From Oceanispirochaeta sp. (GTDB lineage: Bacteria > Spirochaetota > Spirochaetia > DSM-2461), in assembly GCF_027859075.1 (NCBI RefSeq), contig NZ_JAQIBL010000003.1, positions 1 through 60,139 of the forward strand: 60,139 nt of DNA. The letters run 5' to 3'. Under the pieces are notes generated by a model. It ran no database searches, was not told the origin of the DNA, and saw only the letters and a list, made by a program, of their open reading frames with translations. Of the stretch, positions 42,743-60,139 are shown in pieces (position 1 is the first letter of the stretch; each line of letters opens with the position of its first letter). The translations under genes were made by a program, and so were the position numbers.

Positions 42743-42764
42743 ACTTTTGACTGCTTCTTTATAG

Positions 42765-42796
42765 AAAAAAACCCCGCCTTCCCGGTGGGGTTTTTT
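42765..42796. terminator. Bidirectional intrinsic terminator
   Basis: A7-CCCCGCC-ttccc-GGTGGGG-T6 between convergent genes. Confidence 0.85.
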
Positions 42797-42810
42797 ATGG
42801 AGCATACAGC

Positions 42811-43974: not shown

Positions 43975-43988
43975 TTGCGTCTCCTTAA

Positions 43989-44897
43989 TTATACGGTGAA
44001 ATACTCTGAAATAACCTCATAGAGTTCTTCAAATGTATCATCAAATATTTTATCACTGGTAAAGCCGGGAGAGCGGCAGTAATCCGACTTGATAAAGCCT
44101 CTTTTCTTCATAACTTTCTTCTCAAAGGCAATGATCATTTCCACATTCTGCCGGATATGATTCAGAAAATAAACCAGTTCTTTATGAACTTTGAAAGCTT
44201 CCTGGCGTTTGCCATCCATATACAGGTCGTAAATGCTCCTGTACACATCAAACATGGAGGGACCGGGCATTACACCGGCGGCACCTCTATCCAGTCCTTC
44301 GATCATCTGGTATCCCGCATTGCCGACAAAGACCTCGGTTCCCGGCCGGGCCTTTTTGACAACATTGTCGATATAGAGTCCCGGGGGCTTGCACTCAATC
44401 TTGTAGTAAATGATATTGGGGCACTCTTCGTTGAGCCTAAGAAGAACATCAGGACTGATGGCCACACCGGTCTGTTCAGGGGCATATTGCACCATCACCG
44501 GGATTTTCACAGCCTTTCCAACCGCCTTCATATGCTCATACAGAGAGGCTCCACCAGGCTTTAAAAAGAATGGGGGAAGAACCATCATACAGTCGGCACC
44601 GCTGGCCTCAATGTGCTTAGCCCACTCGATAGCAACCTCTGTGGAGTGTCTTGTATTTGAAATGATACAGGGTTTACCGTGCTTCCTGGAAGATTCCACA
44701 GTCACATCAATAAGTTTTAATTCTTCTTCATAAGATAATTTATAATACTCTCCGGCAATGCCGAAGAGGGTAATCCCATGGCTGCCTTCGTCAAACATAC
44801 AGCTCAGAGCAGAGGCATAATCTTCATAGTCCACCTGCCCTTTATTATTATACACAGCAGGGGCAATCGGTAAGATCCCCTTGATTTCTTTACTCAT
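43989..44897 (-). CDS. DHDPS/NAL family enzyme (2-keto-3-deoxy sugar-acid dehydratase or aldolase)
   Basis: GIAGEYY, LPPFF, VQYAP, Schiff-base YYKIE and GVMPG motifs. Confidence 0.88.
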   Translation of the reverse strand: MSKEIKGILPIAPAVYNNKGQVDYEDYASALSCMFDEGSHGITLFGIAGEYYKLSYEEELKLIDVTVESSRKHGKPCIISNTRHSTEVAIEWAKHIEASGADCMMVLPPFFLKPGGASLYEHMKAVGKAVKIPVMVQYAPEQTGVAISPDVLLRLNEECPNIIYYKIECKPPGLYIDNVVKKARPGTEVFVGNAGYQMIEGLDRGAAGVMPGPSMFDVYRSIYDLYMDGKRQEAFKVHKELVYFLNHIRQNVEMIIAFEKKVMKKRGFIKSDYCRSPGFTSDKIFDDTFEELYEVISEYFTV

Positions 44898-44921
44898 AGT
44901 GTTCTCCAAAATATTTATTCG

Positions 44922-45692
44922 TCACAATTGAGCGATGGTCACACCACCGTCAATATAGTAGGAAGCTCCGGTGATGTAATTGGCCCTCTGACTGGCCAGA
45001 AATACAAAGAGATCTGCGCATTCATCAGCCTGCCCCAGGCGCCCCATAGGAATTAAATCGATTAGATGCTGTTTAAATTCCGGCTCTTTCTCCAGTTTAT
45101 CTCCCAGGATTTTAGTCTCAATAATTCCCGGGTTTACATTGTTCACCTGGATATTATAAGGGGCCAGCTCCACCGCCAGAGATCGGGCCAGAGCACCGAT
45201 TCCACCCTTAGAGACACAGTAGGTTGTCAGGTTTGGACGGGCAATGGCTTCAACCATGGATGAATTATTTATAATCTTGCCCCTTTCTCCCCGATCCGCC
45301 ATATGACGGGCACAGAGTTGAGAAACCATAAAATAGCTCTTGAGGTTGATGTCAATGACTGTATCCCAGTCGGACATGTCCATATCCAGGAATTTTTTAT
45401 GATAGGAAATCCCTGCATTGTTGATGAGGATATCAATGTGGCCCAATTTCTCAATGGTGAAATCCACAAGATTCCTGACTTCCTCTTCCTGACTGACATT
45501 AGCCTTGAAGACCTCGGATTTCAAACCCATTCCTGTAAATTTATCTTTGAGTCGAAGAACTTCCTTGTCATTACTGTTGTAATTCAAACAGGTATGAACC
45601 CCTTCTGCGGCTAAACCTTCTGCAATAGCAGAACCGATTCCTCCGCTGGCCCCTGTAATGAGAGCCGTTTTACCTTTCAGTTTTAAATCCAT
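44922..45692 (-). CDS. SDR family sugar dehydrogenase
   Basis: TGASGGIG, NNAG, YCVSKGG and NPG motifs. Confidence 0.9.
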   Translation of the reverse strand: MDLKLKGKTALITGASGGIGSAIAEGLAAEGVHTCLNYNSNDKEVLRLKDKFTGMGLKSEVFKANVSQEEEVRNLVDFTIEKLGHIDILINNAGISYHKKFLDMDMSDWDTVIDINLKSYFMVSQLCARHMADRGERGKIINNSSMVEAIARPNLTTYCVSKGGIGALARSLAVELAPYNIQVNNVNPGIIETKILGDKLEKEPEFKQHLIDLIPMGRLGQADECADLFVFLASQRANYITGASYYIDGGVTIAQL

Positions 45693-45764
45693 TCGGACCT
45701 CCAGATCTCCCTCTCCAGCCAATGGAATATTTGGGAGATCTTTGAATTATCATTATCTTATTTC

Positions 45765-45840
45765 ATCTTATAGCCAACCATTGGTTAGACCAATTAAATA
45801 TACATTGTCTTTGTGGACTTGTCAACAATTGGTAGAACCA
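45765..45840 (-). promoter_or_regulatory. Promoter and two FadR-type operators of the SDR-DHDPS-MR operon
   Basis: TTGACA (45825-20)-N17-TATATT; TGGTAGAACCA at 45830-40 and ATTGGTTAGACCAAT at 45780-94. Confidence 0.75.
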
Positions 45841-45983
45841 CTTTACAGATTTGCCGGTATAGAAAGATCAAACGATAGTAATAATTGCTTTTATGATGAG
45901 ATATAAATAGAGAAAAGAGAATGGGAATAATTTGGATGAAAAACAAAAGGCCTATGACTGGTTCAGCTACAGAAGAATCTGGT

Positions 45984-46010
45984 AAAGGGGAGGAAGCCCC
46001 CCCCTTTTTT
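45984..46010. terminator. Intrinsic terminator downstream of kdgK
   Basis: AAAGGGGAGG-aagc-CCCCCCCTTTTTT. Confidence 0.6.
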
Positions 46011-46028
46011 AATATTCACAGTGTAAAC

Positions 46029-47123
46029 TTATCTCTTAACCCGACCCGTAGTGCTTCCGTTCTTCAAGGCCGTCACTTCTTCATAACTGGAGTAATTGAA
46101 ATCTCCTTCAATGGAGTGGCAGAGGCAGGAAGAAGCAACTGCGAATTCCAGTGCATCCCCGGGAGAATCTTTGAACTCTCCACTGAGTCCATAAATCAAA
46201 CCTGCAGAAAAGGAGTCTCCCCCGCCCAGGCGGTCTACTATGTTGCGAATCTCATAGGGTTTGTACCCATCCCCATCCATGGGGGCGAAATGGGCAGAGC
46301 CGTCTTTGCATGTATAGAGCATGGCTCCCCAGTTGTTATGATTGGCAGAGATGCTTTCTCTCAGTGTGATCGCTACATGGCTGACATGGGAAAACTGCTG
46401 TTGAATCTGCCTGGCTACATCTGGATACCGGTTGATATCCAGATCTCCTGCTTCCACATCAGTGTCTCCCGCTTGGATGCCAAGAACATCATGGGCATCT
46501 TCTTCATTTCCGATGACAACATCCACGTATTTCAAAAGACGGCGCATGGTTTTTTCTGCCAGATCCCTGGAATTGGTCCCGGCCTCCCAGTTCCATAATT
46601 TTTTTCTGAAGTTCAAGTCACAAGAGACAGTCACACCGGCGTCCTTTGCATGTCTCGCCGCCAGAATGGAAGCTTCGGCAGCTTCTCTGGAGATGGCCTG
46701 GGTAATACCGCTGATATGAAACCATTTGGCATCGGCGAATATATTTTTCCAGTCGTAAGAATCTCCTGGAGTAAGGGAAACAGAAGAGTCGGCTCTGTCA
46801 TAAATAACCTGGCTGGGTCTCTGGTTGGCTCCCGTTTCCATGAAATACAGACCGAGACGGCCCTTGTCGGTCCTGAGGATGTAGGATGTGTCTACACCAA
46901 AACGTCTCACTGAATCTTCACAGGCATCGGCGATGCTATGTTTGGGAAGTGCTGTTACATACCGGGTTTGGCAGCCGAGCAGCTGGAGGGAGACAACAAC
47001 GCTGGATTCAGCCCCGGCAAAGGTGACATTCAGATTTCCAGGCATAGTCTGCCTGAACCGTCTGTTGTTATCCGGAGAAAAACGTCCCATGATTTCTCCA
47101 TAGCTTACGATAACGTCTTTCAT
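46029..47123 (-). CDS. kdgK: 2-keto-3-deoxygluconate kinase (PfkB family)
   Basis: GEIMGR, YDRADS, DLNFRKKLW, GNEED and DRLGGGDSFSAG motifs; follows eda. Confidence 0.9.
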   Translation of the reverse strand: MKDVIVSYGEIMGRFSPDNNRRFRQTMPGNLNVTFAGAESSVVVSLQLLGCQTRYVTALPKHSIADACEDSVRRFGVDTSYILRTDKGRLGLYFMETGANQRPSQVIYDRADSSVSLTPGDSYDWKNIFADAKWFHISGITQAISREAAEASILAARHAKDAGVTVSCDLNFRKKLWNWEAGTNSRDLAEKTMRRLLKYVDVVIGNEEDAHDVLGIQAGDTDVEAGDLDINRYPDVARQIQQQFSHVSHVAITLRESISANHNNWGAMLYTCKDGSAHFAPMDGDGYKPYEIRNIVDRLGGGDSFSAGLIYGLSGEFKDSPGDALEFAVASSCLCHSIEGDFNYSSYEEVTALKNGSTTGRVKR

Positions 47124-47779
47124 CCTCTTACCTCTCTTGTGATTTTGACCGCCTCCCGGGCATTGGCAGCGATGCCGGTCCAGTCTTTTTTATCTATCAT
47201 TCCAGGAGGAGCAATCCAGGAACCACCGATTGCCAGGATCTCCGGGCGTTCAAGCCAGGAAGCCATATTCCCCGCATTCACTCCTCCCAGGGGAATATAT
47301 TGCAAATCAAGAAATCCATAGGGTCCATTGAGGGCTTTCAGATAATTAATGCCGCCCAGCTGCTCCGCCGGGAATATTTTTAAGACCTGACATCCCTTTG
47401 ATACAGCCGTCTCAACATCTGATGCGGTACTGATTCCGGGGCCGAAAGGAAACTGTCTCTCCAGGGCTCCGTCGATCACATCGGGATTACACCCGGGGGC
47501 CACTGCAAAAAGAGCCCTTCTTTTAATAATCTCATCAAGCTGAGACGCCTGAAGGACCGTTCCTACCCCGGCATTCATTTCCGGTACTTCCTTTGTTATC
47601 CTTTCAAGAGCATTCAGGGCACACTCTGTCCGCAAGGTCAGCTCCATGGCTCTGATTCCTTCATCAACAAGGAGCCTGGCCAGAGGAACAGCCTGATCGG
47701 CATCATTGATTGTAATCACAGCGATAACACCTGACGCAAAAAGTTTCCCCTTCAATTCTGATGTAAATATAGTTTTCAT
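47120..47779 (-). CDS. eda: KDPG/KHG aldolase
   Basis: ELTLRT, GVGTVL, LKIFPA, PLGGV and GGSW motifs. Confidence 0.93.
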   Translation of the reverse strand: MKTIFTSELKGKLFASGVIAVITINDADQAVPLARLLVDEGIRAMELTLRTECALNALERITKEVPEMNAGVGTVLQASQLDEIIKRRALFAVAPGCNPDVIDGALERQFPFGPGISTASDVETAVSKGCQVLKIFPAEQLGGINYLKALNGPYGFLDLQYIPLGGVNAGNMASWLERPEILAIGGSWIAPPGMIDKKDWTGIAANAREAVKITREVRG

Positions 47780-47805
47780 AATAAAACCTCCCTTTCTGTA
47801 AGATC

Positions 47806-47866
47806 ACTATAGACATACAACAAAAACCTGTCAATAATATGAGACATCAGTCTCTCTGAGAGAGAC
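47806..47866. promoter_or_regulatory. eda promoter and IclR operator candidate
   Basis: Minus strand TTGACA (47834-29)-N17-TATAGT; palindrome GTCTCTCT-g-AGAGAGAC at 47850-66. Confidence 0.65.
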
Positions 47867-47888
47867 ACAAATAGGATTGGATAAAATA

Positions 47889-48656
47889 ATGGAAACGTCC
47901 CAGACCATAGAAAAGACAATGCTCCTGCTGCAGACACTTGCAGAAAATGAACGAAGTACAGCCGCAGAAGTAACCAGGGCTCTGGAAGTACATAGAAGCA
48001 CCACCTATCGGATGCTGAAATCTCTGGTTCAGCTGGGGTTTGTGGACCATCAGGAGGAGAGCGGTTTCTATAGTCTATCCTCAAAAATGGGAGACCTTCT
48101 CCACCCAAAATCCTCCTACACCTGGCTGTCAGAGATTGTGAGTCCATACATGGAAGAGTTCCACAGCAAGGTGAATGAAACACTGCATCTGGCAGTTCTT
48201 AAAAATAATGAGCTTTGCTATCTGAATAAATGGGAATCGAGTCGTAGCCTCAGAGTCGTCATCCAATCAAAAGCAGGTGGTTTTGCTCCTCTGCACTGCA
48301 CAGGCTTAGGAAAAATGCTTCTATCAGGGCTGGATAGCCAGGAATTGAAGGAAATCCTTCCCAGGCTTACATTGATACGGTTCACAAAAAATACGATTTC
48401 AGAATTGGATACTTTTAGACATGAACTGCTGACGATTCAGAAAAGAGGCACATCTTATGATAATGAGGAACACGAGGAGGGTGTTTGCTGTATTTCAGTT
48501 CCTCTGGTCGATAAAGAGGGGAAAACAGTTGCAGCCATCAGCATCACCGTTCCTGGTGTTCGATTTACCCAGAAAAGGAAGGCAGAATTACTTGATGAAA
48601 TCACATCTATAGGACATAAGATATCGAAAGATATCTGCAACCTGGAAAAGAATTGA
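47889..48656 (+). CDS. IclR family regulator (KdgR-like)
   Basis: HRSTTYRML HTH, ETLHL, PLHCTGLGK and DNEEHEEGVCCISVP motifs; divergent from eda-kdgK. Confidence 0.92.
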   Translation: METSQTIEKTMLLLQTLAENERSTAAEVTRALEVHRSTTYRMLKSLVQLGFVDHQEESGFYSLSSKMGDLLHPKSSYTWLSEIVSPYMEEFHSKVNETLHLAVLKNNELCYLNKWESSRSLRVVIQSKAGGFAPLHCTGLGKMLLSGLDSQELKEILPRLTLIRFTKNTISELDTFRHELLTIQKRGTSYDNEEHEEGVCCISVPLVDKEGKTVAAISITVPGVRFTQKRKAELLDEITSIGHKISKDICNLEKN

Positions 48657-48859
48657 TAGTAAACATGATAAGATCTGAATCAATACACAGCGGTACTTTA
48701 AGTCCTGCATCCAGGATGTAAAAAAATAGTAGTTGAGGAAAGTGACTGGGTCATGATTTTCACCGGAATGTCAACTATAAAGAAGTCCTTTGTGTATTTT
48801 GTGATTTCAAAAATAATTCTTTTTCTCCCTGTAATTGACAGGCAAACCACCTGTAATCT

Positions 48860-49062
48860 GTTTAAAAGATCTTGCCTTCAAATGGAGTCTGTATCCCGTT
48901 TCTGAATTATTGCAAAGCGAACCCGAGACTGTTATTCAAAAAGTACAGATGCTATGTAATGAAACCAAAGGTTTACCATACATCCTGAGTGGTGGTTACG
49001 AAATTCCAGCAGCAGTATCTGATGAGGTCTTTCAAGCTTTTTGCAATGCTACAGGGAAATAA
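48860..49062 (+). pseudogene. C-terminal remnant of an MtaA/CmuA/URO-D-like protein
   Basis: LAFKWSLYPVSELLQSEPETV...PYILSGGYEIP resembles 'GNLDPV..L.GTPE.V...FILSGGCEIP'; no N-terminal part. Confidence 0.6.
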
Positions 49063-49089
49063 TGATATTCTATAAAAACGGTTATTCAT

Positions 49090-49115
49090 TGTGTGCCATG
49101 CCGGTATGACACACA
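49090..49115 (-). terminator. Stem-loop at the end of the ABC/URO-D operon
   Basis: Minus strand TGTGTGTCAT-accggc-ATGGCACACA. Confidence 0.5.
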
Positions 49116-49127
49116 TTGATTAGAACA

Positions 49128-50213
49128 TCAGGACCACTTCAAAAGCCTGTCCAGAATTGTCTTCTGCATCCCCCTGTCCGATTCAGAAATACAGAGATAG
49201 ATCCCTTTGGGAGACATCTGGGAAATAAACTCTTCCAGTTCGGACAGCTCCAGATCCACGATGACACCCTTGCCGGCGTTCTGAATCTTCTTGATCAGAG
49301 GCAGCCACTGCATAATGGGTTTTTCATTACCGACACCTTGAACCCATTGGATGGCATTGATCTCATCCAACTCTAGGATAGAGTCAATATGGTTAGCAAC
49401 ACCCTTCCCGTCCAGATGGAAGATATTGTGCTCGAAGTGTTTCACTTCCCTCTTGATATATGGCAATGAGAACTCATCAAAACTAGGCTTTGAGATCATG
49501 GACCCCAAGTCACAGCTTGGGATATGCATGGTCTTGAAAGAGGGAATATTCATCCAGGAAACGGAGAGCTGTTTCTTCGCTTTCAATTTCCTGTGCATCA
49601 TATCCATGATGCCCACAAAGGGCTTGTAACAGTTTTCAATCATCCTGTGCAGCCTGTCAGGATCATCGTACATATCCATGCATAATCCCGTTGTCCCTCT
49701 CAGAGCATCCAGACAGTCAAGGCTGGGGTGCATGTCGGTGTATCCCACCATGTATCTGTTTTCACACCTTTCCAGGGAATGATCAGTCAGCTCCATGAGC
49801 TTTGCCAGAGACTCGTTGTCCTCATCAAATTTGATCTTATCTGCATCCCCCTGGGAATGAAGGATGGGATGGACCCAGGAGGTAACATCCCCAAACTCAA
49901 TTTCTCCCCCCAGCATGGCAGCATAGACATTAGGTCCAAGATTCGGCCAATAAACCGGGAAAGTTTCTCCCAGACAAGGTCCATCCAATGAAGCTTCAAA
50001 ATGCTTGATCTGATATTCAACATCGTACCACCGGTCTTTGAGGCTCTTCCAGTTCTCCGTATCTTCAACAGTTTCGTATTCTTGATTATGAGCCGTAAAT
50101 CGAACGGGTACCCGGTCTATTATTTCGCATTCATACCAGGCATAAATCCTTTTCATAGACTCTACAAAGTCCGGTTTATATTCCAGGTCCAGATCATAAA
50201 AATCCTGATTCAT
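49128..50213 (-). CDS. URO-D/MetE-like TIM-barrel protein of unknown function
   Basis: DRVPV, NLGP, ALRG..LCMDMYDDP, SCDLGSMISKPSFDEF and FHLDG, a URO-D-like pattern; AGGAG RBS; directly after the permease. Confidence 0.7.
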   Translation of the reverse strand: MNQDFYDLDLEYKPDFVESMKRIYAWYECEIIDRVPVRFTAHNQEYETVEDTENWKSLKDRWYDVEYQIKHFEASLDGPCLGETFPVYWPNLGPNVYAAMLGGEIEFGDVTSWVHPILHSQGDADKIKFDEDNESLAKLMELTDHSLERCENRYMVGYTDMHPSLDCLDALRGTTGLCMDMYDDPDRLHRMIENCYKPFVGIMDMMHRKLKAKKQLSVSWMNIPSFKTMHIPSCDLGSMISKPSFDEFSLPYIKREVKHFEHNIFHLDGKGVANHIDSILELDEINAIQWVQGVGNEKPIMQWLPLIKKIQNAGKGVIVDLELSELEEFISQMSPKGIYLCISESDRGMQKTILDRLLKWS

Positions 50214-50223
50214 AAAAAATCTC

Positions 50224-51177
50224 CTATGCCTTGATTTTCTGTTTTTTAGAGAGGATATCAATGGAAACAGCCAGCAGCAGGACAAGTCCTTTCACGACCC
50301 GCTGCCAGTACTCGCTGATATTCAGCATCAGCATTCCATTGGCGAGAACACCCATAAACAGAACACCTATGATAACCTTGAAGAGTTTCCCTTCTCCACC
50401 GCTGACACTGACACCACCCAATACAACCGCCGTAATGATATCCATTTCGTATCCGTCTCCGGCACTGGGCTGACCACTGTTGACACGGGACATAAGGACA
50501 AGTCCTGACATGGCTGCCAGAAAGGCTTCCAGCATATAGACCTTATAGATGACAGCCTTGATGTTGACCCCGGAGAGTCTGGTAGCTTCCTCATTCCCAC
50601 CGATTCCATACACACAGCGTCCAAAGACCGTTTTATTGAGAAGAATAATACCGGCAATGAAAAAGAACACCATTATGATGACAGACACGGGGATTCCCAA
50701 AAGATTTCCCTGGCCCAGAAACTTGAAAGAGACAGGCAAACCATAGACAGGCATTCCCCCGCAGATGAGGTATATGGCCCCTCGGAGAGTGGTCATCATA
50801 GCCAGGGTCGTGATGAGGGGGGGTATGGTGACATAATTGATGAAAGTCGCAATCACGGCACCGATACCAAGGGCAATAATGAAAGTAATAAGCAGAGCCA
50901 GTAGTATGGGAACTCCACTACTGAGCATCAGGGCACAGGAAACGGCTGATAATCCAATGACAGACCCCACGGAGAGGTCAATCCCTCCGGTCAGGATCAC
51001 CGTGGTCATACCGACGGCGCAGATTCCGGTAATTGAGATTTGCCTGAGTATATTGAGCATATTATTGGTGCTTAAAAAATTTTCCGACCTGATTGAAAAA
51101 AAGGTAAACATAAGCAAAAGGGATAGCAATATCCCCACACTGGACCAATCTATATTCTTTTTATTAATATTTTGCAT
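50224..51177 (-). CDS. Monosaccharide ABC permease (CUT2, RbsC-like)
   Basis: GGIDLSVG, GGNEEATRLSG and AVVLGGVS motifs. Confidence 0.93.
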   Translation of the reverse strand: MQNINKKNIDWSSVGILLSLLLMFTFFSIRSENFLSTNNMLNILRQISITGICAVGMTTVILTGGIDLSVGSVIGLSAVSCALMLSSGVPILLALLITFIIALGIGAVIATFINYVTIPPLITTLAMMTTLRGAIYLICGGMPVYGLPVSFKFLGQGNLLGIPVSVIIMVFFFIAGIILLNKTVFGRCVYGIGGNEEATRLSGVNIKAVIYKVYMLEAFLAAMSGLVLMSRVNSGQPSAGDGYEMDIITAVVLGGVSVSGGEGKLFKVIIGVLFMGVLANGMLMLNISEYWQRVVKGLVLLLAVSIDILSKKQKIKA

Positions 51178-52672
51178 TTTCCACCTCCCTGGCAACCGAT
51201 GCTAATTCCAGGATCTTTTCCTGTGTTGTTTCTTCTTTAGATAATTCACCGGTGATTTTTCCGCCGGCCATGACGAGGATTCTGTCACTCATACCAATCA
51301 GTTCAGGCATTTCGGAAGAGATCATAATGATGACTTTTCCCATGAGAGCAAGTTCATTGATCAGGTTGTAAATCTCCTGCTTGGCACCTACATCAATTCC
51401 CCTGGTGGGTTCATCAAAAATCAGGATTTTGCTCTCCATAAGAAGCCATTTAGCCAGCACAACCTTCTGTTGGTTTCCCCCGGACAGGTTTTTGACAAGT
51501 TGATCGCTGGAGGGTGTTTTTATTTTAAGAGACCGGATCTGTTCAGCACTGAGTTTGTTCTCTTTTGCATCAGAGATGATGCCCAGGGTTCCAGTCAGAT
51601 TCTTCATATAGGCAAAGGAGATATTCTCTTTTATATTCATATGCAGCAAGGTACCCTGCTGTTTTCTATCCTCGGGAATCAAGCCGATCCCGTTCTGTAC
51701 ACCGTCTTTTGGAGAGTGAATCCCCACCTTCTTTCCATCGATCAGGATCTCACCGCTGGTCAGACGATCGGCTCCGAAGAGGACTCTAGCCACTTCGGTT
51801 CTCCCTGCTCCCACCAGACCGGCAAAACCCAGTTTCTCACCCTTAAATGCAGAGAAAGAAACATCCTTCAAAACAGAAGTATTCAGGTTTTTAACCTCAA
51901 GGACTTTTTCTCCTCTCTCCATTTCGATCTGCGGAAAAGAATGATCCAGATCCCGGTTCACCATCAGCTTGATCAGCTCATTTTTATTTGTATCTTTCAC
52001 AAGGGATGTAGAAATGTACTCACCGTCTCTGAAAACGGAAACCTTGTCACAGATTTCAAAGATCTCTTCCAGTCTATGAGAAATGTATATGATGGCGATG
52101 CCGTCAATTTTCAGTTTTTCAACAATCCGGAATAAGTATTCAAGTTCATTGTTGGTCAGAGGGGCAGAGGGTTCATCCATGATCATGATTTTGACTGTTC
52201 TGGAAACAGATTTTGCAATCTCCACCAGCTGCTGGTATCCAACAGTCAAATCTTTGACCAGCATTTTGGGATCGATCAGAACACCAAGACTGTCCAGGAC
52301 TTTTTTTGATTTCTTTTCTATGGATTTATAATCGATAAATCCTCTTTTTTTGTCATATCGATTGTAATAAATGTTCTCTGCAACAGAGAGATGATCAAAT
52401 AGATTAAACTCCTGGTAGATGGCAGTGATTCCCAGGTGCAGCCTCTCTGCAGGGCTGCTGTCTTTCAGCTTCTGCCCCTCAAAATAGACATCCCCTGAAG
52501 TGGCTTCGATAGCACCTGTAATTATTTTTATAAATGTAGATTTCCCGGCTCCATTCTCTCCCACAATGGCATGAACTTCACCTTCTCTGAACCCCAGGGA
52601 AACACCCTTCAGCGCAACAACTCCGGGGTACTCTTTTCTAATCCCTTTGAGCTCTAATAAATAGTCATCCAT
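51164..52672 (-). CDS. Monosaccharide ABC ATPase (RbsA/MglA-like)
   Basis: GENGAGKST, MDEP, LSGGNQQKV and DEPTRGIDVGAK motifs. Confidence 0.95.
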   Translation of the reverse strand: MDDYLLELKGIRKEYPGVVALKGVSLGFREGEVHAIVGENGAGKSTFIKIITGAIEATSGDVYFEGQKLKDSSPAERLHLGITAIYQEFNLFDHLSVAENIYYNRYDKKRGFIDYKSIEKKSKKVLDSLGVLIDPKMLVKDLTVGYQQLVEIAKSVSRTVKIMIMDEPSAPLTNNELEYLFRIVEKLKIDGIAIIYISHRLEEIFEICDKVSVFRDGEYISTSLVKDTNKNELIKLMVNRDLDHSFPQIEMERGEKVLEVKNLNTSVLKDVSFSAFKGEKLGFAGLVGAGRTEVARVLFGADRLTSGEILIDGKKVGIHSPKDGVQNGIGLIPEDRKQQGTLLHMNIKENISFAYMKNLTGTLGIISDAKENKLSAEQIRSLKIKTPSSDQLVKNLSGGNQQKVVLAKWLLMESKILIFDEPTRGIDVGAKQEIYNLINELALMGKVIIMISSEMPELIGMSDRILVMAGGKITGELSKEETTQEKILELASVAREVENAKY

Positions 52673-52697
52673 GCTTTGTCCTTTCATACGATCAATT

Positions 52698-52750
52698 ATA
52701 AAAAGAGAGAGAGAGGATAGAGCCCGGGGAAGGGATCACTCCTGCTCTCT
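52698..52750 (-). terminator. Hairpin with U tract after the SBP gene
   Basis: Minus strand AAGAGAG-CAGGA...TCCT-CTCTCTCTTTT, an imperfect long stem. Confidence 0.5.
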
Positions 52751-52760
52751 TCATTACAGA

Positions 52761-53750
52761 TTATTTGATGTATTCGCCGATATTGGCATCAGTTACAATT
52801 TTCATGTCAATGAGGATTTTTTCTTTTATAGGTCCGTCAGCAAGAACTTTCATTGCAATTTCAAGGGCGTCCCGGCCCAGTTTTGCAGGCTGAATATCGA
52901 CAGTTCCCTGATACATGGTATCTCCGGCAATAAGCTCAAGGGCCTGGGGAAGTGCATCCAGACCTGTGATACAGGTATTGTTAATAGTATGATTTTTACG
53001 GGCCAGACAGGCTTCGTACACACCAAGGGCAGATGAATCATTGATTCCCAGGAAGATAGCTACATTTGGATTGGCAGTCAGAGCAGTTTCGGCCACTTTA
53101 TAACCCGTATCTGCATCGGCAGCATCCTGCTCAAATACGTAGTCAAACTTTGCAGAACCTGTATATGTTTCTTCCATTCCGGCTTTCAGACCGTCACCGC
53201 GATCTATTAGGGAGGCAATCACATCATAGCGGATGACAACAACTTCGATTTCACCTTTCTTATTGAGAACATCTGAAATTGTTCCAGCAGCTTCTTTCTC
53301 ATTGAGCCACTGTCCGGCAATGATCCCGCCATTGTACCCAAAGTCATATTCACTTGTACCGATAAAAGCAGAAGATCCCTTGACTGTCTGATTAATACCG
53401 ATAACTGGAATGCCCTGAGCCTGTGCATTTGCAACGGCGTCTTCGGGTGCTTTTTCATCTACAGGGCTGATGAGAATAACATCAACCTGCTGGGCAATAA
53501 AGTTTTCAATATGAGCCACATGCTTGGAAGCATCAGCTGCCGCATCGGCGACTATAAGATCAATCCCCATATCTTTCGCGGCAACTTTCATGCCTTCCAC
53601 AACGGATACGAAATAGGCATTTTCCATGCTCTGAACGGTATAACCGATCTTCAGTTTTTTCTCACCCGAAGCAGATGCATCAGACTGTCCATTTGCCATA
53701 ACACTGAAAGTCATAAGGGTACATAATAAAACCAATAGTAATTTTCTCAT
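52761..53750 (-). CDS. Monosaccharide ABC substrate-binding protein (RbsB-like)
   Basis: Leader MRKLLLVLL...MANGQSD; NAYF, IENFIAQQVD, NDSSALG and GLD motifs. Confidence 0.92.
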   Translation of the reverse strand: MRKLLLVLLCTLMTFSVMANGQSDASASGEKKLKIGYTVQSMENAYFVSVVEGMKVAAKDMGIDLIVADAAADASKHVAHIENFIAQQVDVILISPVDEKAPEDAVANAQAQGIPVIGINQTVKGSSAFIGTSEYDFGYNGGIIAGQWLNEKEAAGTISDVLNKKGEIEVVVIRYDVIASLIDRGDGLKAGMEETYTGSAKFDYVFEQDAADADTGYKVAETALTANPNVAIFLGINDSSALGVYEACLARKNHTINNTCITGLDALPQALELIAGDTMYQGTVDIQPAKLGRDALEIAMKVLADGPIKEKILIDMKIVTDANIGEYIK

Positions 53751-53794
53751 TTAAAAGTCCTCCTGATATTTATCATTGACTGAGACTGTTCCCG

Positions 53795-53820
53795 GGATTA
53801 ATCCGGCGCCGGATTAGTCC
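53795..53820. repeat. 26-bp near-perfect palindrome in the SBP leader
   Basis: GGATTAATCCGGCGCCGGATTAGTCC with an 18-bp perfect core. Confidence 0.7.
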
Positions 53821-53919
53821 AAAAAATCATAAATCAGTACAAGATCTATGAAGACTTTAGCACCCAAATTTTCAAACGTGAATACAATATGAATCTATAA
53901 TCTTTAAATATGATCTGAT

Positions 53920-55482
53920 TTACCGGACAGTTTTAATATATCCCGAGGGAGTCATTCCGGTTTGCTTTTTAAAGGCTGATGAGAAATAGGTCGGATTATT
54001 GTACCCCACCATATAGCTGATCTCATAACTGCGGTAATTAGTATTGGACAGCAGAGTTTTGGCTTTTTCAATTCTGAAGTCTGTCAGATAATCAGTAAAA
54101 CTCGAACCTGCAGCCTCTTTGAAAACAATGCTGAAATAGCTTTTACTCAACCCGACCTCTGAGGCCACCATATTGATCCTCAGCTCCGGATTTGTATAGT
54201 TTTCCTCAATGAAGGTGAAGGCGTTGATCATCAGCTGATCCAGGGAGTGGTCACTTTTCAGATTAAGAAACTCTGAGAGAGGACAGAGTTTCTCCTTGAG
54301 AAGATCCAGGCTCTCAGAACAGGTTTCTGCTGCCAGGATTTTATCAAGAAGATCCTTACTATCTCCCATTACATCCGCAGTATGTATGGACAGTTTCAAT
54401 GCTTCACGTTCTATAGCAGCAAATATTTTGCTCAAAGTAAAAATAAATACGATTCTGGCTTTCTGACCGCAATTCCGGATACAAAGCCCGTACTCATCCA
54501 TACACTGTGGCACAGCTTTAAAATTTCCCAGCATTGTCAGCTGGGCCAGTTTATCCGCAGCCGCTTCTGACCTGAAATCATACCCGTCACTCTCTGCTTT
54601 AAAATCACTCAGATAAAGGTCTCTTTTGGGTCCATGTATAAAAAACAAATCTTCAACCCGGAGAGCCTCCTGGTAGGACTGTGACAAGTTGAGAAATTGA
54701 TTGACCGTACTTCCATTTTCAAAGAACAGAGATGACCCGTTTAAATCGGAGAAATCATCCAGCAGATTCTTTTTAACCTGGTCCAAATTCTCTTTAAGAG
54801 TCACTCGGCTTTCAGAGATGGAGAGGATCAGGATTTTTCCAAAGTGAGAAAGAATTTCAATTCCCGGAACCGGTTTTTTGTGAAGGGCCTGGCGGATCTG
54901 ATTCAGATTCTCTGACCTTGTCCTGATTATTGTGACAGAAAAAGCCTTGTACTTTTCAACAGGAAGAAGAGTCTTATACTCCCGAAGCAGATCAGGATAC
55001 CCCGGAATACCCGATAGAACCTGATTGTACATACTGATTGTATCATGACTCCTCTTTTCATCCTCAAGCCTGTCAATACTGCTGATTTTCCGGGACATAT
55101 GACTCTTCAGATCCTTGTCCTTCACAATTTTCTGCATAACAGATTCAAGGCTCTCCAGATTGATGGGTTTTAGAATATAATCTTCCGCACCCTGTTTTAT
55201 GGCCTTATGGGCATAAGAAAAATCATCATGGGCACTGATGATGACAGTGGCGATTTCAGAATCAAAGTTTTTCACCTTGCTGATCAGTTCCAGGCCATCC
55301 AGGTGGGGCATTCTGATATCCGTCAAAAGGATATCCGGGTGAAATGTTTTCACAGCATCCAATGCGATCTTCCCATCATCTGCCGTAGCCGCAATCTCAA
55401 TGCCCAGCCGAACCCAGTCAAAATTCTCAGATAACCCCCGTAACAGGATTTCATCATCATCGGCAATAACTATTGTATACAA
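53920..55482 (-). CDS. YesN-type response regulator (REC + AraC)
   Basis: IADDD, DIRMPHLDG, YILKP and GYNNPTYFSSAFKK motifs; TTG start. Confidence 0.93.
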   Translation of the reverse strand: MYTIVIADDDEILLRGLSENFDWVRLGIEIAATADDGKIALDAVKTFHPDILLTDIRMPHLDGLELISKVKNFDSEIATVIISAHDDFSYAHKAIKQGAEDYILKPINLESLESVMQKIVKDKDLKSHMSRKISSIDRLEDEKRSHDTISMYNQVLSGIPGYPDLLREYKTLLPVEKYKAFSVTIIRTRSENLNQIRQALHKKPVPGIEILSHFGKILILSISESRVTLKENLDQVKKNLLDDFSDLNGSSLFFENGSTVNQFLNLSQSYQEALRVEDLFFIHGPKRDLYLSDFKAESDGYDFRSEAAADKLAQLTMLGNFKAVPQCMDEYGLCIRNCGQKARIVFIFTLSKIFAAIEREALKLSIHTADVMGDSKDLLDKILAAETCSESLDLLKEKLCPLSEFLNLKSDHSLDQLMINAFTFIEENYTNPELRINMVASEVGLSKSYFSIVFKEAAGSSFTDYLTDFRIEKAKTLLSNTNYRSYEISYMVGYNNPTYFSSAFKKQTGMTPSGYIKTVR

Positions 55483-55483
55483 A

Positions 55484-57280
55484 TCAAAGATCTCCCCTGA
55501 TTCTCAAAGTGATTTTTGTTCCTTCTCCGATCTGGCTCTCTATACCCAGGGAGCACTTGTCCTTAAAAAAAAGAGACAGCCTCTCCTTCACATTCTTAAA
55601 CCCGTAAGAACTTAAATCGTCCTGGTCGTCCATCACCGGATCGCCTCCACACAGTGGTTCCAGCTGTTCAGGACTCATCCCGGCACCGTTGTCAGAGATG
55701 ATGATGACCACATCTTTCTTTTCTTCATAACCGTATATATGGATGAACCCGCCCTCCTGGAGGTTTTTGATGCCATGGTAGATGGCATTCTCCACCAGAG
55801 GCTGCAAAATAAGCTTGGGAAGGGGCTGGGTCATTATATCATCGGGAAGATCTATCTCATAGGACAATTTGTTCTTGTACCGCAACTGCTGGATAGTCAG
55901 ATAACTGGTAACATTCTCAATCTCCTGCTGCAGACTGATGATGTCTTTTCCTTTGCTTAGACCGGTTCTAAGAAAGACTGTCAACGCCTGAATCATCCTG
56001 ATAGAATCCTCAGACTCTTTCATCCTGATAAGCCAGATGATGGAATCCAGGGTATTATACAGAAAGTGAGGGTTGATCTGAGCCTGAAGCAGCATCAATT
56101 CATACTGTTTCAGCTTATTCTGCTCCTCATAGATTTTATCCATTAGTTTGGTAATATCAAAGATCATTTTATTGAAATCTCTACCCAGGACTCCGATTTC
56201 ATCCTCCGCCGAATTGTGGACCCTGGCCGAGAAATCGCCTTTTCGAACCAGCGCCATTGTCTGGGAGAGTTCTATGATCGGATTTGTGAGAGACCTCGAA
56301 ACACGGTAAGCCATAAGAGAGGAAATTAATATCAGTACCAGCAAAATAAAAAAAGAGAATACCAGGATGATGATCAGATTCTTAAACAGGCTTTTCTTGG
56401 ACACGGTGCTGCAGTAGATCCAGTCGCTGATTGTTGAGCGTTTATAGGCAGTGATGGATGATCTCCCCTCCTTGATATTAATTTTTCCTGCACCTGCTGC
56501 GGTATCCCAATATTTGATTCCCGGACGGCTGACACGGACAAGTTCGGGAAGAAGATCTTTTTCCTGATAGCGGCTGATCCCTGTTTTTTCGAAGACATAG
56601 GTATCCTCTTCATCCACCAGATACAAAGTGGAGAATTTCTCCTCTTCAGATTGGTTCAGATGAGAAGGAAGCCTGATGTCCACAACGATAAGACCCAGAA
56701 CTTCCTTATTCAGGACTTGTCGGATAGGAATGAGAAGAGGAACATGATTCTCGGGAAGGGTTTCTACCACAAGAGATCCTGACTGGGGACGGTACCAACT
56801 GAAACGACTCTGTTTTCTGCCATTCCTGTACCACTCTTCCTCTTTAAATGCACTGTCTATGAACATCTTATCCGCACTCTTAAAGAGCCCTCCGTTTTCA
56901 GCAATGATGTAGACTTCAATCATATTGGATGTATATTGGAGCATTTGAGTCAGTTCAGAGTTCAAAATGGTTTCATCCAGGTACTGTTCAGTCGGACTGT
57001 CATAGGTATGAGACAGGATTTCATTGATCAATGGATTTCTGCTGATGGTGTTTCCGATTTGATAGGCATCTTCCAGGAGAAGATCCATTTCAGTGGAAAC
57101 CTGTTCTATCATTGAAACTGTATCAACTCTCAGACCGCGGACTGTATTGTTCAATAGATAAATACACAAAGGGATTCCGAAAAGTAAAATAGGGATGATA
57201 GAGAAGGCTGAAAAATACTTTAAAACCCTGTTCGCCAGCTTTGAGATTTTAAAGTGCCTGGAGACTCTTCCCATTTTCAT
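55484..57280 (-). CDS. YesM-type sensor kinase (Cache + HAMP)
   Basis: DEIG HAMP, LQAQINPHFLYNTLD, LQPLVENAIYHG and DNGAG motifs. Confidence 0.93.
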   Translation of the reverse strand: MKMGRVSRHFKISKLANRVLKYFSAFSIIPILLFGIPLCIYLLNNTVRGLRVDTVSMIEQVSTEMDLLLEDAYQIGNTISRNPLINEILSHTYDSPTEQYLDETILNSELTQMLQYTSNMIEVYIIAENGGLFKSADKMFIDSAFKEEEWYRNGRKQSRFSWYRPQSGSLVVETLPENHVPLLIPIRQVLNKEVLGLIVVDIRLPSHLNQSEEEKFSTLYLVDEEDTYVFEKTGISRYQEKDLLPELVRVSRPGIKYWDTAAGAGKINIKEGRSSITAYKRSTISDWIYCSTVSKKSLFKNLIIILVFSFFILLVLILISSLMAYRVSRSLTNPIIELSQTMALVRKGDFSARVHNSAEDEIGVLGRDFNKMIFDITKLMDKIYEEQNKLKQYELMLLQAQINPHFLYNTLDSIIWLIRMKESEDSIRMIQALTVFLRTGLSKGKDIISLQQEIENVTSYLTIQQLRYKNKLSYEIDLPDDIMTQPLPKLILQPLVENAIYHGIKNLQEGGFIHIYGYEEKKDVVIIISDNGAGMSPEQLEPLCGGDPVMDDQDDLSSYGFKNVKERLSLFFKDKCSLGIESQIGEGTKITLRIRGDL

Positions 57281-58200
57281 GGTATCAGATCCCGGGCATT
57301 CTCTGCTGAAATGAAAGTGCTCTTCAGAACTATAGAATCAAAATCACTCTTATTCTCTATATGCTTCCGAATCATACTGAAAAGAGGGGAAATACCGTCT
57401 TCTCTATAAACCGTTCCGTAATAGGAAGTGGATAAAATGGCTTTGGCTGCATCCGTTGATCCGCCAATTGAAATAATGGGAATCTTATACCCTACTTCCA
57501 GCAAGGCATCCTGGACCCCCAGTCCTAGCCGGTCATTATGGGCAAAAATGGCATCAATGGAAGAACCGTATTTTTCCAGGGCTTCCCTCATATCGCTGTA
57601 GGCTTCTATTCGAGTGCCGCAATTTTCAATGACTGCGGCTATGTACAGATTTTCATACAATCCTAGCCCCTGCCGGAATCCCAAAGCCAGATCTCTTGTA
57701 ACAGAAGAGAGAATCGGTCCCTGAATCTCAAGGATCTGAGTGGATTCTCCCATAGAAAGGGTTGAAAATGCTTCTGAGACAAGCGCCCCTTCTTTAACAT
57801 GATCACAGGCAATAATACTGCTGAGAGATCCTGTATTATGGACCCTTGTCGTAGAATTCATAAGAATGGTCCCGACTCCCCTCTTATGAGACTGATCTAT
57901 CTGATCCTCTAATCCTAGGGAGGTCACAGGAGAGATGATCAGGAAATCCGGGTCTCTTTCCAGAAGGGTAGTAATACCTCTTATCTGTCCTTTAAGGCTG
58001 TTTTCACTCCCTTCAAAAATAAATTGATATCCCGAATCTGCGGCGAATCGACTCATTTCATTGATGATACCGATACAAAGAGAACTGTCACGATTTTCAA
58101 TTGAGAGGGCGATGAGGGGTGGAGCGCTTACCTCTACGGACATTCTGGTACAGCCTGTGAATAGAACCAGGAGGCATAAGACTGTGATTTTCAGTTTCAA
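57277..58200 (-). CDS. Sugar-binding lipoprotein associated with the sensor kinase (XylFII-like)
   Basis: Lipobox LFTGC; periplasmic-binding-protein type I features (ISPV, AHND); overlaps the kinase start; TTG start inferred. Confidence 0.75.
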   Translation of the reverse strand: MKLKITVLCLLVLFTGCTRMSVEVSAPPLIALSIENRDSSLCIGIINEMSRFAADSGYQFIFEGSENSLKGQIRGITTLLERDPDFLIISPVTSLGLEDQIDQSHKRGVGTILMNSTTRVHNTGSLSSIIACDHVKEGALVSEAFSTLSMGESTQILEIQGPILSSVTRDLALGFRQGLGLYENLYIAAVIENCGTRIEAYSDMREALEKYGSSIDAIFAHNDRLGLGVQDALLEVGYKIPIISIGGSTDAAKAILSTSYYGTVYREDGISPLFSMIRKHIENKSDFDSIVLKSTFISAENARDLIP

Positions 58201-58219
58201 AGAAGATTCACCTGCTCCA

Positions 58220-59095
58220 CTAGTAATTTGAATGTATTTTACCATGGATTAAAACATCCTTGGAATCCTTGATAAACTCCTGAAGAGATCGGGGATTCCT
58301 TCCCAGAAGTATTTGTGAGGTAGGAGTAGTTACATCCCCCCGTCCCAGGCGGACTACAGTATAAAGGACCAGCATCACAAGAATCATTCCCAGCTTTCTA
58401 CTCTTTTTCAGATGATAAGAGATAAAATGAATAGGACCGGGACTGATGAAATGGATAGGCTGACCCAGTTCATTGGAGAGATGCTCTGCGATTTCTCTGT
58501 GAGAGTAGCTGAGCATCCCGGTGATTGTATATGCTTTACCGATATGTCCGGTCTGCACAAAGATCCGAGCAGCGATTTCCCCGATATCACGAACATCGAT
58601 GAAGTTGGTTTTCCCCTCCCCGGAAGGCACAAAAAGACACTTTTCATCCCGGATTTCAAGAAGATGAGTGGTCGTCAGATTCTGCATAAAGAAACTGGGA
58701 CGGAGGATCGTATAAGGGATCTCAAGGGACATCAGATACTGCTCCACCTTGTGATGGGGAATTATTTTATTCCCTTCTGCCCCCTGTACAGAGAGAAAAA
58801 CCACCTGCCTGACATTCCGGGACTTCAAATGATTCAAAAAGGGAAGCATATCCCTTTTGATATGGGAGATATGAGGAGGTCTCATCAGAAAGACCCTGTC
58901 CACACCTTCCAGACAGGGTTCCCAGGTAGTCTGATCAGTAAAATCAAAGGACCGCCACTCCACCCCTTCCCGGGCTTCTGGATTTTTAAAAAGGGATTTT
59001 CCGCCGATGACAGAAACTCCGCTTTTCAGGAGATATTTGACTACTTCAGAACCTACATTCCCCGTCGCACCTGTGACGAATATTTTAAAGTTCAT
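58220..59095 (-). CDS. NmrA-like / atypical SDR NAD(P)H-binding protein
   Basis: VTGATGNVG, PHHKVE, LRPSFFMQN and IDVRDIG motifs. Confidence 0.88.
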   Translation of the reverse strand: MNFKIFVTGATGNVGSEVVKYLLKSGVSVIGGKSLFKNPEAREGVEWRSFDFTDQTTWEPCLEGVDRVFLMRPPHISHIKRDMLPFLNHLKSRNVRQVVFLSVQGAEGNKIIPHHKVEQYLMSLEIPYTILRPSFFMQNLTTTHLLEIRDEKCLFVPSGEGKTNFIDVRDIGEIAARIFVQTGHIGKAYTITGMLSYSHREIAEHLSNELGQPIHFISPGPIHFISYHLKKSRKLGMILVMLVLYTVVRLGRGDVTTPTSQILLGRNPRSLQEFIKDSKDVLIHGKIHSNY

Positions 59096-59186: not shown

Positions 59187-60139
59187 CACAGCTGTCCAAG
59201 ATAATTTGAAAGGGGTTTTATAAAGCCGAAATCCAATATATATTAATGGTGACTAAACGCATACATATAAAGGAAATCGGCTATGAGTCATCAGAATACA
59301 ACTTTTCAGCAACTTCTTCAATTAATAACGAGACATGATTTTGAAAAATGGGTAAAGAAGCACCGCGGAGAGGCCTACACCAAGGGATTCAGTTGTTGGA
59401 GTCATTTTACTTCGATGCTATTTGGGCAGTTAAGTTCACAAAAAGGTTTGAGGGGAATTGAATCAGGTTTATCCATGAATAAAAATAATTTTTATCATCT
59501 AGGAATAGGCGCGGTAAAACGCTCAACGCTCTCATATGCTAATAATAACAGGCCACATGAAATCTATCAGGATTTATTTTATTCCTTACTTGGCAGACTG
59601 CATAACAATAAGAAAAAGCATAAATTTAAATTCAAAAACCCTCTCTACAGTATTGATGCATCAACCATTGATCTATGCCTGAATATATTTCCATGGGCGA
59701 ACTTCAGACAGAATAAAGGTGGGATTAAGTTGCATGTCAAACTGGATCATTCCGGTTATATCCCTTCCTTTGTCTCTGTTACAGATGCCAAAGTGCATGA
59801 GATGAATGCAATACGAGAAATGCCAAGGAAAAAAGGAGACATTTTTGTATTTGATAGAGGCTATAACGATTACAAAGAGTTTTCAAAGTATTGTAAGGAA
59901 GGGATTTACTTTGTTACAAGGATAAAACGGAATGCAGCATATCAGGTGTTAAAAGAATGTGATGTTAATAAATATGAGAATATTGGATTTGATAAATACA
60001 TCAAGATGACCGGAATAAAAACAGGGAAGGAGTGTACTCAGAGATTGAGAATCGTGGAAAGCTTTGATCCTGATACAGACAATACCATAGTACTTTTGAC
60101 AAATCATTTTTCCTGGTCTCCTGAAACAATTGCTGGGAT
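59187..60139 (+). mobile_element. IS4-family insertion sequence (left end; truncated by the window end)
   Basis: Candidate terminal IR CACAGCTGTCCAA at 59187; AT-rich; transposase ORF follows. Confidence 0.85.
59283..60139 (+). CDS. IS4 family DDE transposase (DUF4372 N-terminus), partial
   Basis: Not in ORF track (no stop in window). MSHQNTTFQQLL...MLFGQL...LRGIE...RSTLSYANNNR...IDASTI...GGIKLH...FDRGY...FVTR...LLTN. Confidence 0.92.
   Translation, partial: MSHQNTTFQQLLQLITRHDFEKWVKKHRGEAYTKGFSCWSHFTSMLFGQLSSQKGLRGIESGLSMNKNNFYHLGIGAVKRSTLSYANNNRPHEIYQDLFYSLLGRLHNNKKKHKFKFKNPLYSIDASTIDLCLNIFPWANFRQNKGGIKLHVKLDHSGYIPSFVSVTDAKVHEMNAIREMPRKKGDIFVFDRGYNDYKEFSKYCKEGIYFVTRIKRNAAYQVLKECDVNKYENIGFDKYIKMTGIKTGKECTQRLRIVESFDPDTDNTIVLLTNHFSWSPETIAG

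What the first reader, a model, noticed from the sequence alone, without database searches (positions are those of the whole stretch)
49128..58200. Dedicated sugar sensor and ABC importer whose only intact enzyme is a URO-D/MetE-like protein
Seen: a lipoprotein-kinase-regulator module, then SBP-ATPase-permease, then a single enzyme gene (URO-D-like, with SCD and HLDG motifs), then a hairpin. A second URO-D/MtaA remnant converges on it at 48860-49062. There is no kinase, isomerase or glycosidase, which monosaccharide ABC loci normally carry. Known: MtaA/CmuA-type URO-D-fold proteins are Zn-dependent corrinoid methyltransferases. Inference: this may be an uncharacterised uptake and first-step pathway for a modified monosaccharide, for example anaerobic O-demethylation of an O-methyl sugar from algal glycans, or a new hydrolase or decarboxylase on this fold.
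Basis: partly seen in the sequence, partly recalled or inferred. Interest (0 to 1): 0.72.

Follow-up and report, generated by a model that had tools for sequence, protein, structure and literature searches.

The report
Candidate B12-dependent methyl-arabinose demethylase module
A sugar sensor and importer operon ends in an unnamed enzyme whose relatives are fused to vitamin-B12 carrier and reactivating proteins, so it likely strips a methyl group from an imported methylated sugar, possibly methyl-arabinose, without oxygen, a reaction predicted here and not yet measured.

Summary
The lipoprotein, kinase, regulator, binding protein, ATPase, permease and a 361-aa URO-D-fold enzyme are real, and all seven recur together in 6 other loci.

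The enzyme is not an MtaA/CmuA member: it has invariant D235/H266/D268 and no H-x-C zinc motif. Several lines tie it to corrinoid methyl transfer:
- One relative is fused to the corrinoid activator RACo.
- Structural relatives are fused to B12-binding and homocysteine-methyltransferase domains.
- 42 of 43 Clostridia carrying the family have RACo, against 110 of 356 without it.
- This genome encodes a stand-alone corrinoid protein beside RACo on another contig.

L-arabinose genes flank 12 of 46 close-homolog loci and 0 of 30 distant ones.

Best reading: an MT-I O-demethylase for an O-methyl aldose (0.65), most likely methyl-L-arabinose or -D-galactose (about 0.4). No activity is shown, and no stand-alone folate methyltransferase was found. 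Six paper searches found no anaerobic sugar demethylase. Earlier notes of this scan proposed the same idea on other genomes (unchecked, not independent support).

The parts
49128..50213 (-). 361-aa URO-D-fold protein, predicted corrinoid-dependent methyltransferase I (sugar O-demethylase); invariant D235, H266, D268, G269
50224..51195 (-). Monosaccharide ABC permease (RbsC-like, below all named NCBIfam cut-offs)
51164..52687 (-). Monosaccharide ABC ATPase (RbsA/AraG-like, below cut-offs)
52761..53750 (-). Transport solute-binding protein; RbsB fold, at most 29% identical to solved SBPs, 58-64% to its 7 module orthologs
53880..53916 (-). Conserved 37-bp site upstream of the SBP gene, weak 21-bp repeat; likely operator of the response regulator
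   Evidence: found in 6 other module loci; top genome hit, 19.8 bits against 17.8 next, with a matrix built without this window
53920..55482 (-). Response regulator, receiver + AraC HTH (YesN type)
55484..57280 (-). Sensor histidine kinase, dCache-HAMP-His_kinase (YesM/LytS type)
57277..58245 (-). Sensor lipoprotein of SBP fold (true start may be a TTG near 58200)
49090..49115 (.). 10-bp hairpin between the converging genes; likely terminator, no U-tail
48835..49062 (+). 75-aa ORF resembling the C-terminal ~55 residues of a URO-D-fold methyltransferase; probable gene remnant
   Evidence: for; searches found nothing

Best explanation
The operon likely senses and imports an O-methylated aldose, and its URO-D-fold enzyme likely removes the methyl group by passing it to a vitamin-B12 (corrinoid) protein encoded elsewhere in the genome, which would free a plain sugar, possibly L-arabinose, for ordinary catabolism. 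Steps: (1) Shown: gene content and order, fold, conservation of the module, and the upstream site. (2) Inferred from known three-component systems: the lipoprotein binds the sugar outside, the kinase phosphorylates the AraC-type regulator, and the regulator binds 53880-53916 to switch on SBP-ATPase-permease-enzyme. (3) Inferred: the enzyme is methyltransferase I. D235/H266/D268 would hold a Lewis-acid metal or polarise the ether oxygen, and Co(I) of the corrinoid protein (G000:C2:3606-4244) would take the methyl group; RACo (C2:6002-7834) would reactivate it. (4) Inferred, weaker (about 0.4): the product is L-arabinose or its stereo-twin D-galactose, used by araBAD on C54 or the Leloir genes. 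(5) Open: the methyl acceptor. Homocysteine, through the stand-alone homocysteine methyltransferase at C329:14862-15830, is my first choice; tetrahydrofolate through the MetH pterin domain is second.
For: Fold: URO-D/MtaA Z 17-20, MetE about 11, others under 10. Fusions: P0121 joins a full-length family domain (33% to the target) to RACo. Atlas structure search gives TM 0.88 matches inside B12-binding proteins (523 aa, 73 members) and homocysteine-methyltransferase + B12 proteins (954 aa, 83 members). Co-occurrence with RACo: 42 of 43 against 110 of 356 Clostridia; 12 of 13 against 9 of 25 in the own family; 13 of 16 genomes reached through family loci. A corrinoid protein or pterin-binding methyltransferase gene lies in 9 of 83 homolog loci. 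A sugar transporter lies in at least 28 of 42 loci of 10 kb or more. L-arabinose genes lie in 12 of 46 close-homolog loci against 0 of 30 distant ones, at four separate places in a quick tree. Above NCBIfam cut-offs: araA in L019/L068, araD in L020, ribulokinase in L031/L058/L068/L095, AraG/AraH in L133. [quoted passage not shown]
Against: No activity or ligand data. No sequence-level hit to a characterised methyltransferase (best CdmB, E 0.1). No stand-alone methyl-THF methyltransferase in this 96%-complete genome; the pterin-binding hits are only FolP and MetH, and no MtaB was found. G651, G031 and G353 carry family members with no RACo found. The RACo fusion is a single sequence. Only 2 of the 7 module loci (L019/L020, near-identical) have adjacent ara genes, and the closest relative L018 has none. 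G003 (93% complete) has a 46% homolog but neither arabinose isomerase type was found; G038 lacks canonical AraA. The operator matrix finds no site at araBAD or at the corrinoid genes. araD is common anyway (23 of 38). Genomes and loci are related, so the Fisher p-values overstate.
Confidence: 0.65

Rival explanations
1. Same corrinoid chemistry, different donor: a methyl glycoside (anomeric O-methyl), an O-methyl inositol such as pinitol, or an S-methyl sugar such as methylthioribose.
For: The SBP is nearest to ribose-binding proteins, with inositol-type binders close behind. In the alignment to 2ioy the 'DR' pair is replaced by N/D-Q; that these residues contact O1/O2 is recalled, not tested.
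Against: Neighbouring catabolic genes point to L-arabinose and galactose. No ribokinase or methionine-salvage cluster stood out among the recurring neighbours; one Gfo/Idh/MocA pair lies in a separate operon of L022.
Confidence: 0.15
2. A corrinoid-independent metal hydrolase, lyase or decarboxylase on the URO-D barrel, for example a lactonase or ether-cleaving enzyme for a rare sugar.
For: An Asp/His/Asp set without Cys suits a hydrolase. UroD scores Z 19.5-20, MtaA 18.6. No corrinoid gene is in the window.
Against: Fusions to B12-binding, homocysteine-methyltransferase and RACo domains and 42 of 43 RACo co-occurrence have no ready explanation under this reading. The RQAGR motif of true UroD (recalled) is absent.
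Confidence: 0.08
3. The enzyme works as methyltransferase II, moving a methyl group from the corrinoid onto an acceptor (the imported sugar or a thiol).
For: MtaA-type MT-II enzymes share the fold. A second URO-D protein lies in 20 of 46 close loci, which could be an MT-I/MT-II pair.
Against: The Cys ligands of thiol-activating MT-II enzymes are missing. Atlas fusions already carry a homocysteine-acceptor domain, which leaves the donor role for this domain. In the module it is the only enzyme behind an importer.
Confidence: 0.07
4. The transporter carries a common sugar (arabinose or ribose) catabolised elsewhere, and the enzyme gene is a passenger.
For: The genome has araBAD and many sugar ABC systems elsewhere.
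Against: SBP, ATPase, permease and enzyme stay together at 58-70% identity in 7 loci, 6 of them with the operator. All transporter parts score below the Rbs/Ara/Xyl/Mgl cut-offs.
Confidence: 0.05

Closest known systems
Corrinoid-dependent O-demethylase / dehalogenase MT-I enzymes of the UroD superfamily (OdmB, VdmB, MtvB, MtoB, CdmB; PMC13222342, passages read)
   Same: URO-D barrel; needs a corrinoid protein and an ATP-dependent activator, which may be encoded apart; CdmB is the best, though insignificant, PDB sequence hit (E 0.1).
   Different: Known donors are aryl methyl ethers or haloalkanes. Here the context is a monosaccharide importer, there is no MT-II in the cluster, the host shows no stand-alone MT-II, and the motif is D...H-x-D.
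[quoted passage not shown]
   Same: Fold (4ay7: Z 18.6, 12% identity); mlp clusters also lack a folate methyltransferase.
   Different: No H-x-C...C zinc motif, no NCBIfam hit, no clustered corrinoid and RACE genes. That paper has 0 occurrences of 'sugar' or 'carbohydrate'.
Carbohydrate-active cytochrome P450 demethylating 6-O-methyl-D-galactose (PMC6292453, passages read)
   Same: Same predicted purpose: unmasking a methylated monosaccharide for catabolism.
   Different: O2-dependent oxidation to formaldehyde by an unrelated fold; specific for the 6-O-methyl sugar.
Three-component SBP-kinase-regulator systems XylFII-LytS-YesN and CuaDSR (PMC10384115, passages read)
   Same: A second SBP beside a sensor kinase and an AraC-type regulator, ahead of an ABC importer and its first enzyme.
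   Different: Different ligand; the enzyme is a methyltransferase-like protein rather than a phosphorylase; binding not tested here.
MtgBCD glycine betaine demethylation tied to methionine synthesis (PMC12478193, abstract and opening read)
   Same: A shared core corrinoid protein links a catabolic demethylase to methionine synthesis, a precedent for the proposed methyl sink.
   Different: N-methyl donor, aerobic host; MtgB is of the MttB superfamily (listing), not UroD.

Membership tests
UroD superfamily (fold) | URO-D-type (beta/alpha)8 barrel | tested here: met
   AF2 pLDDT 94.6; Foldseek TM about 0.6, E 7e-9; Z 17-20 over about 300 residues
HemE / uroporphyrinogen decarboxylase proper | RQAGR motif (recalled) and hemE model score | tested here: not met
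   RQAGR absent; no NCBIfam family at E 0.1; Pfam 19 bits < 23.9
MtaA/MtbA/MtsA/CmuA (MT-II type) | H-x-C...C zinc-thiolate site (recalled) | tested here: not met
   H266-x-D268 invariant in 115 of 115; no Cys conserved family-wide (C234 67/115, C341 10/115)
MtaA/MtbA/MtsA/CmuA (MT-II type) | TIGR01463 / NF004889 match | tested here: not met
   0 families for the target, while the paralog at 34543-35520 does hit them below cut-off
MetE (cobalamin-independent methionine synthase) | Meth_synt_2 domain, closest fold | tested here: not met
   No Pfam hit; MetE Z 10-11.7 against 18-20 for UroD/MtaA
Corrinoid O-demethylase system (MT-I, corrinoid protein, activator, MT-II) | UroD-fold MT-I | tested here: met
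Corrinoid O-demethylase system (MT-I, corrinoid protein, activator, MT-II) | Corrinoid protein and RACE activator available | tested here: met
   G000:C2:3606-4244 and C2:6002-7834, on another contig
Corrinoid O-demethylase system (MT-I, corrinoid protein, activator, MT-II) | Methyl-corrinoid:THF methyltransferase (MT-II) | tested here: inconclusive
   No stand-alone gene; only a MetH pterin domain; genome 96% complete; present beside homologs in L050 and L052
Corrinoid O-demethylase system (MT-I, corrinoid protein, activator, MT-II) | Methyl transfer from an ether to Co(I) | not testable with these tools
   needs an assay
Type 1 mlp gene cluster | At least 2 Mlps + corrinoid protein + Ram within one co-directed cluster (definition) | tested here: not met
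   single enzyme gene, no corrinoid or Ram gene in the operon
Three-component SBP-HK-RR sensor (XylFII-LytS-YesN / CuaDSR) | Lipoprotein SBP + Cache/HAMP kinase + receiver-AraC regulator next to an ABC operon | tested here: met
Three-component SBP-HK-RR sensor (XylFII-LytS-YesN / CuaDSR) | Physical SBP-kinase complex and ligand-dependent induction | not tested
   no complex prediction was run
Named ABC importers (RbsABC, AraFGH, XylFGH, MglBAC) | NCBIfam equivalog cut-offs | tested here: not met
   RbsB 99 < 337; AraH 240 < 378; AraG 548 < 689; RbsA 555 < 745

The most novel reading that the evidence does not exclude
This is a member of a large unnamed family (679 clusters at 50% identity with E up to 1e-30) of B12-dependent carbohydrate O-demethylases. 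They would let ordinary fermenters lacking a dedicated folate methyltransferase eat O-methyl-arabinose or -galactose without oxygen and feed the methyl group to homocysteine. That would supply the anaerobic sink for methylated sugars thought to be recalcitrant in guts and the sea.
Probability: 0.55. Interest if true: 0.85.

Novelty: new variant of a known kind. Interest (0 to 1): 0.63.

Why it matters
Methylated sugars are described as resistant to gut bacteria and as accumulating in seawater, and the sugar demethylase characterised in the paper read needs oxygen (PMC6292453). A corrinoid route would close that gap for anoxic habitats and give a selective biocatalyst for a hard deprotection. 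The single-enzyme module makes the test clean: two binding proteins report the ligand. A cultured species, Faecalicatena orotica, carries a 61% homolog that is 72% identical to a module member; its gene neighbourhood was not seen.

Tried and rejected
Sequence searches of PDB with the protein and two alignments found no significant methyltransferase; the Nrf2 and fimbrial hits are taken as chance. Profile comparison with the paralog at 34543-35520 was not significant (probability 2%), though it lines up HLDG with HNCG.

The Bacteroidota test was nearly empty: family in 2 of 351 genomes, RACo in 17 of 351; the seed genome has both, the distant hit has no RACo. Two Clostridia genomes were not scored. 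Genome-level araD is uninformative.

The operator scan found no second strong site in this genome. The second site in L018 (29 bits) has no catabolic gene behind it. The SBP model and fold search did not assign a ligand.

RNA run X4: 2 of its 5 laid contigs fall in the SBP gene and none in the enzyme gene; the share is small and contigs cannot show expression. The habitat label of the best DNA runs (saline spring) may be the source sample itself.

The neighbouring sugar-acid operon (42811-47779) and the NmrA gene were set aside because they do not recur beside homologs, apart from a generic SDR in 4 loci. The careful tree did not finish; the quick tree was used. No complex prediction was run. 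Paper searches for an anaerobic sugar demethylase listed none. In one search only 25 of 207 papers were listed, subscription papers are missing, and no supplements were read.
Full report
Observation. The region holds, on the minus strand, a lipoprotein of SBP fold, a Cache-HAMP histidine kinase, a receiver-AraC regulator, then SBP, ATPase, permease and a 361-aa ORF (49128-50213). A 10-bp hairpin follows at 49090-49115 (z -3.8). A 75-aa ORF converges on it and probably is a URO-D C-terminal remnant, with moderate support only (for; nothing). One DNA contig of a public run spans 48954-49924 without differences; it may come from the source sample. The host looks like a spirochaete from its binding-protein signal sequences (my recall; no call names it). 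The genome is 96% complete.

The enzyme. Pfam URO-D scores 19 bits, under its cut-off, and NCBIfam gives nothing; only 13 of 115 family members reach E 0.01 on Pfam. The model (pLDDT 94.6) matches UroD and MtaA at Z 17-20 and 10-14% identity, and MetE at about 11. In 115 aligned diverse members only D235, H266, D268 and G269 are invariant. It is therefore a UroD-superfamily protein but neither HemE, MtaA/CmuA nor MetE. The family is large: 1673 proteins, and 679 clusters at 50% identity with E up to 1e-30. The named hits I looked up are 'hypothetical protein' or URO-D family.

The module is a conserved unit. Among 83 homolog loci clustered, the SBP, ATPase, permease and enzyme stay together at 58-70% identity in 7 (L001, L018-L022, L024), and 6 of these also carry the three sensor genes. 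A 37-bp site upstream of the SBP gene is shared by those 6. A matrix built without this window ranks the window's site first in its 4.36-Mb genome, by a small margin (19.8 against 17.8 bits). The sensor layout is that of CuaDSR and XylFII-LytS-YesN (PMC10384115, passages), so that part is known.

Link to corrinoid chemistry. (a) P0121 fuses a full-length family domain to a RACo activator; it is a single sequence. (b) Atlas models at TM 0.88 place the domain inside B12-binding proteins (73 members) and homocysteine-methyltransferase + B12 proteins (83 members), and at TM 0.74 inside a homocysteine-methyltransferase cluster (54 members); both sides are predicted models. (c) In 399 scored Clostridia genomes, 42 of 43 with the family have RACo against 110 of 356 without; most of these 43 are distant members. 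In the own family it is 12 of 13 against 9 of 25, and across phyla 13 of 16. Kinship inflates all these tests. (d) A corrinoid-protein or pterin-methyltransferase gene lies in 9 of 83 loci; some of these also hold a classical URO-D methyltransferase that the corrinoid gene could serve instead. (e) This genome has one stand-alone corrinoid protein beside RACo, a PocR-like AraC regulator (recalled) and a mutarotase-like gene on contig C2. It has 19 URO-D matches, plus the target and two paralogs that fall under that search; several lie in sugar loci. One carrier shared by many substrate-specific enzymes explains why the operon has none.

Which sugar. Of 122 loci given to, 1 had no hit and 45 under 10 kb were dropped. 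L-arabinose genes flank 12 of 46 loci whose homolog is at least 45% identical and 0 of 30 more distant ones; galK/galT flank 5 of 46 against 0 of 30. They fall at four places in the quick tree: L019/L020 (araB-like kinase, araD and araA directly behind this same module), L096, L133/L134 (AraG/AraH above cut-off in L133), and an 11-row clade with ribulokinase, araD and galK. Methyl-arabinoses and 3-O-methyl-galactose occur in Chlorella glycans (PMC7383745, passages). Against this: the closest locus L018 and four other module loci have no adjacent ara genes; in G003 neither isomerase type was found and G038 lacks canonical AraA; the operator is not found at araBAD; and the SBP is not assignable (at most 29% to solved proteins). 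I put the arabinose/galactose identity at about 0.4 and the O-methyl aldose class at 0.65.

Methyl sink. No stand-alone folate methyltransferase and no MtaB were found. Present are a stand-alone homocysteine methyltransferase (C329), MetH domains (C99), an MTHFR domain (C327), Fhs (C252) and a URO-D protein with a C-terminal CxxC domain beside a CobW-like gene (C171). In the Bacteroidota genome G039 the counterparts of these genes (33-47% identical) sit in one cluster with RACo and two corrinoid proteins. With the fusions this favours homocysteine, though methionine synthesis alone would limit flux, so the step stays open.

Comparison and novelty. It works like the MT-I of corrinoid O-demethylases (PMC13222342, passages) and meets the fold and partner tests, but MT-II is unresolved and activity is untested. 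Six searches listed no anaerobic sugar demethylase; the sugar demethylase found in print is an O2-dependent P450. I rate it a new variant of a known kind: known system type, undescribed substrate class and subfamily. Eight earlier notes of this scan propose the same general idea for other genomes. I had stated my reading before seeing them, did not check their loci, and do not count them as support. A word look-up that added arabinose terms returned no note. What this locus adds is the H-x-D subfamily with fusion evidence, a single-enzyme module with its own sensor and operator, and the arabinose link.

Noticed in passing
G000:C171:26187-29578: URO-D protein with F-x-C in place of H-x-C and a C-terminal CxxC thioredoxin-like domain, followed by a CobW-like gene and a second GTPase-like gene; 40% identical to a gene in the RACo/corrinoid cluster of G039. 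Candidate shared methyl-accepting enzyme.
   Followed up: partly
L137 (G039:C88:1-15000): Bacteroidota cluster of RACo, an MtaB-like gene (below cut-off), two corrinoid proteins, a CobW-like gene, a homocysteine methyltransferase, three URO-D proteins and a fucosidase-like gene; methanol release or methionine synthesis could be the methyl sink there.
   Followed up: partly
window 34543-41817: Second URO-D-fold gene (H-N-C-G motif, MtaA/CmuA-like below cut-off) ending an operon of oligosaccharide ABC, sulfatase and GH88-like genes.
   Followed up: no
window 42029-48656: Sugar-acid cluster between GntR and IclR regulators: KDPG aldolase, KDG kinase, SDR, DHDPS-family enzyme and enolase-superfamily dehydratase; 3 of the 5 RNA-run contigs fall here.
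   Followed up: no
G000:C2:2361-7834: The corrinoid-protein gene is followed by a mutarotase-like gene and preceded by a PocR-like AraC regulator and RACo; the same order is kept in G005 (L140).
   Followed up: partly
P0258: Family domain fused to about 660 further residues with no match in this genome; the C-terminal part looks like a glycan-acting alpha/alpha barrel (impression, not tested).
   Followed up: no
L133:5056-8228, L134, L023, L062: ABC-ATPase-like domain fused to a histidine kinase beside an NtrC-type regulator, next to target homologs and sugar ABC genes.
   Followed up: no
window 59283-60137: Transposase (DDE_Tnp_1, DUF4372), G+C 35%, cut by the contig end, with variant copies in the reads.
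   Followed up: no
window 18336-26477: Cluster of uncharacterised glycan-degradation-like genes (lyase- or heparinase-like by eye, RraA-like, 2-hydroxyacid dehydrogenase-like); not scanned against libraries.
   Followed up: no
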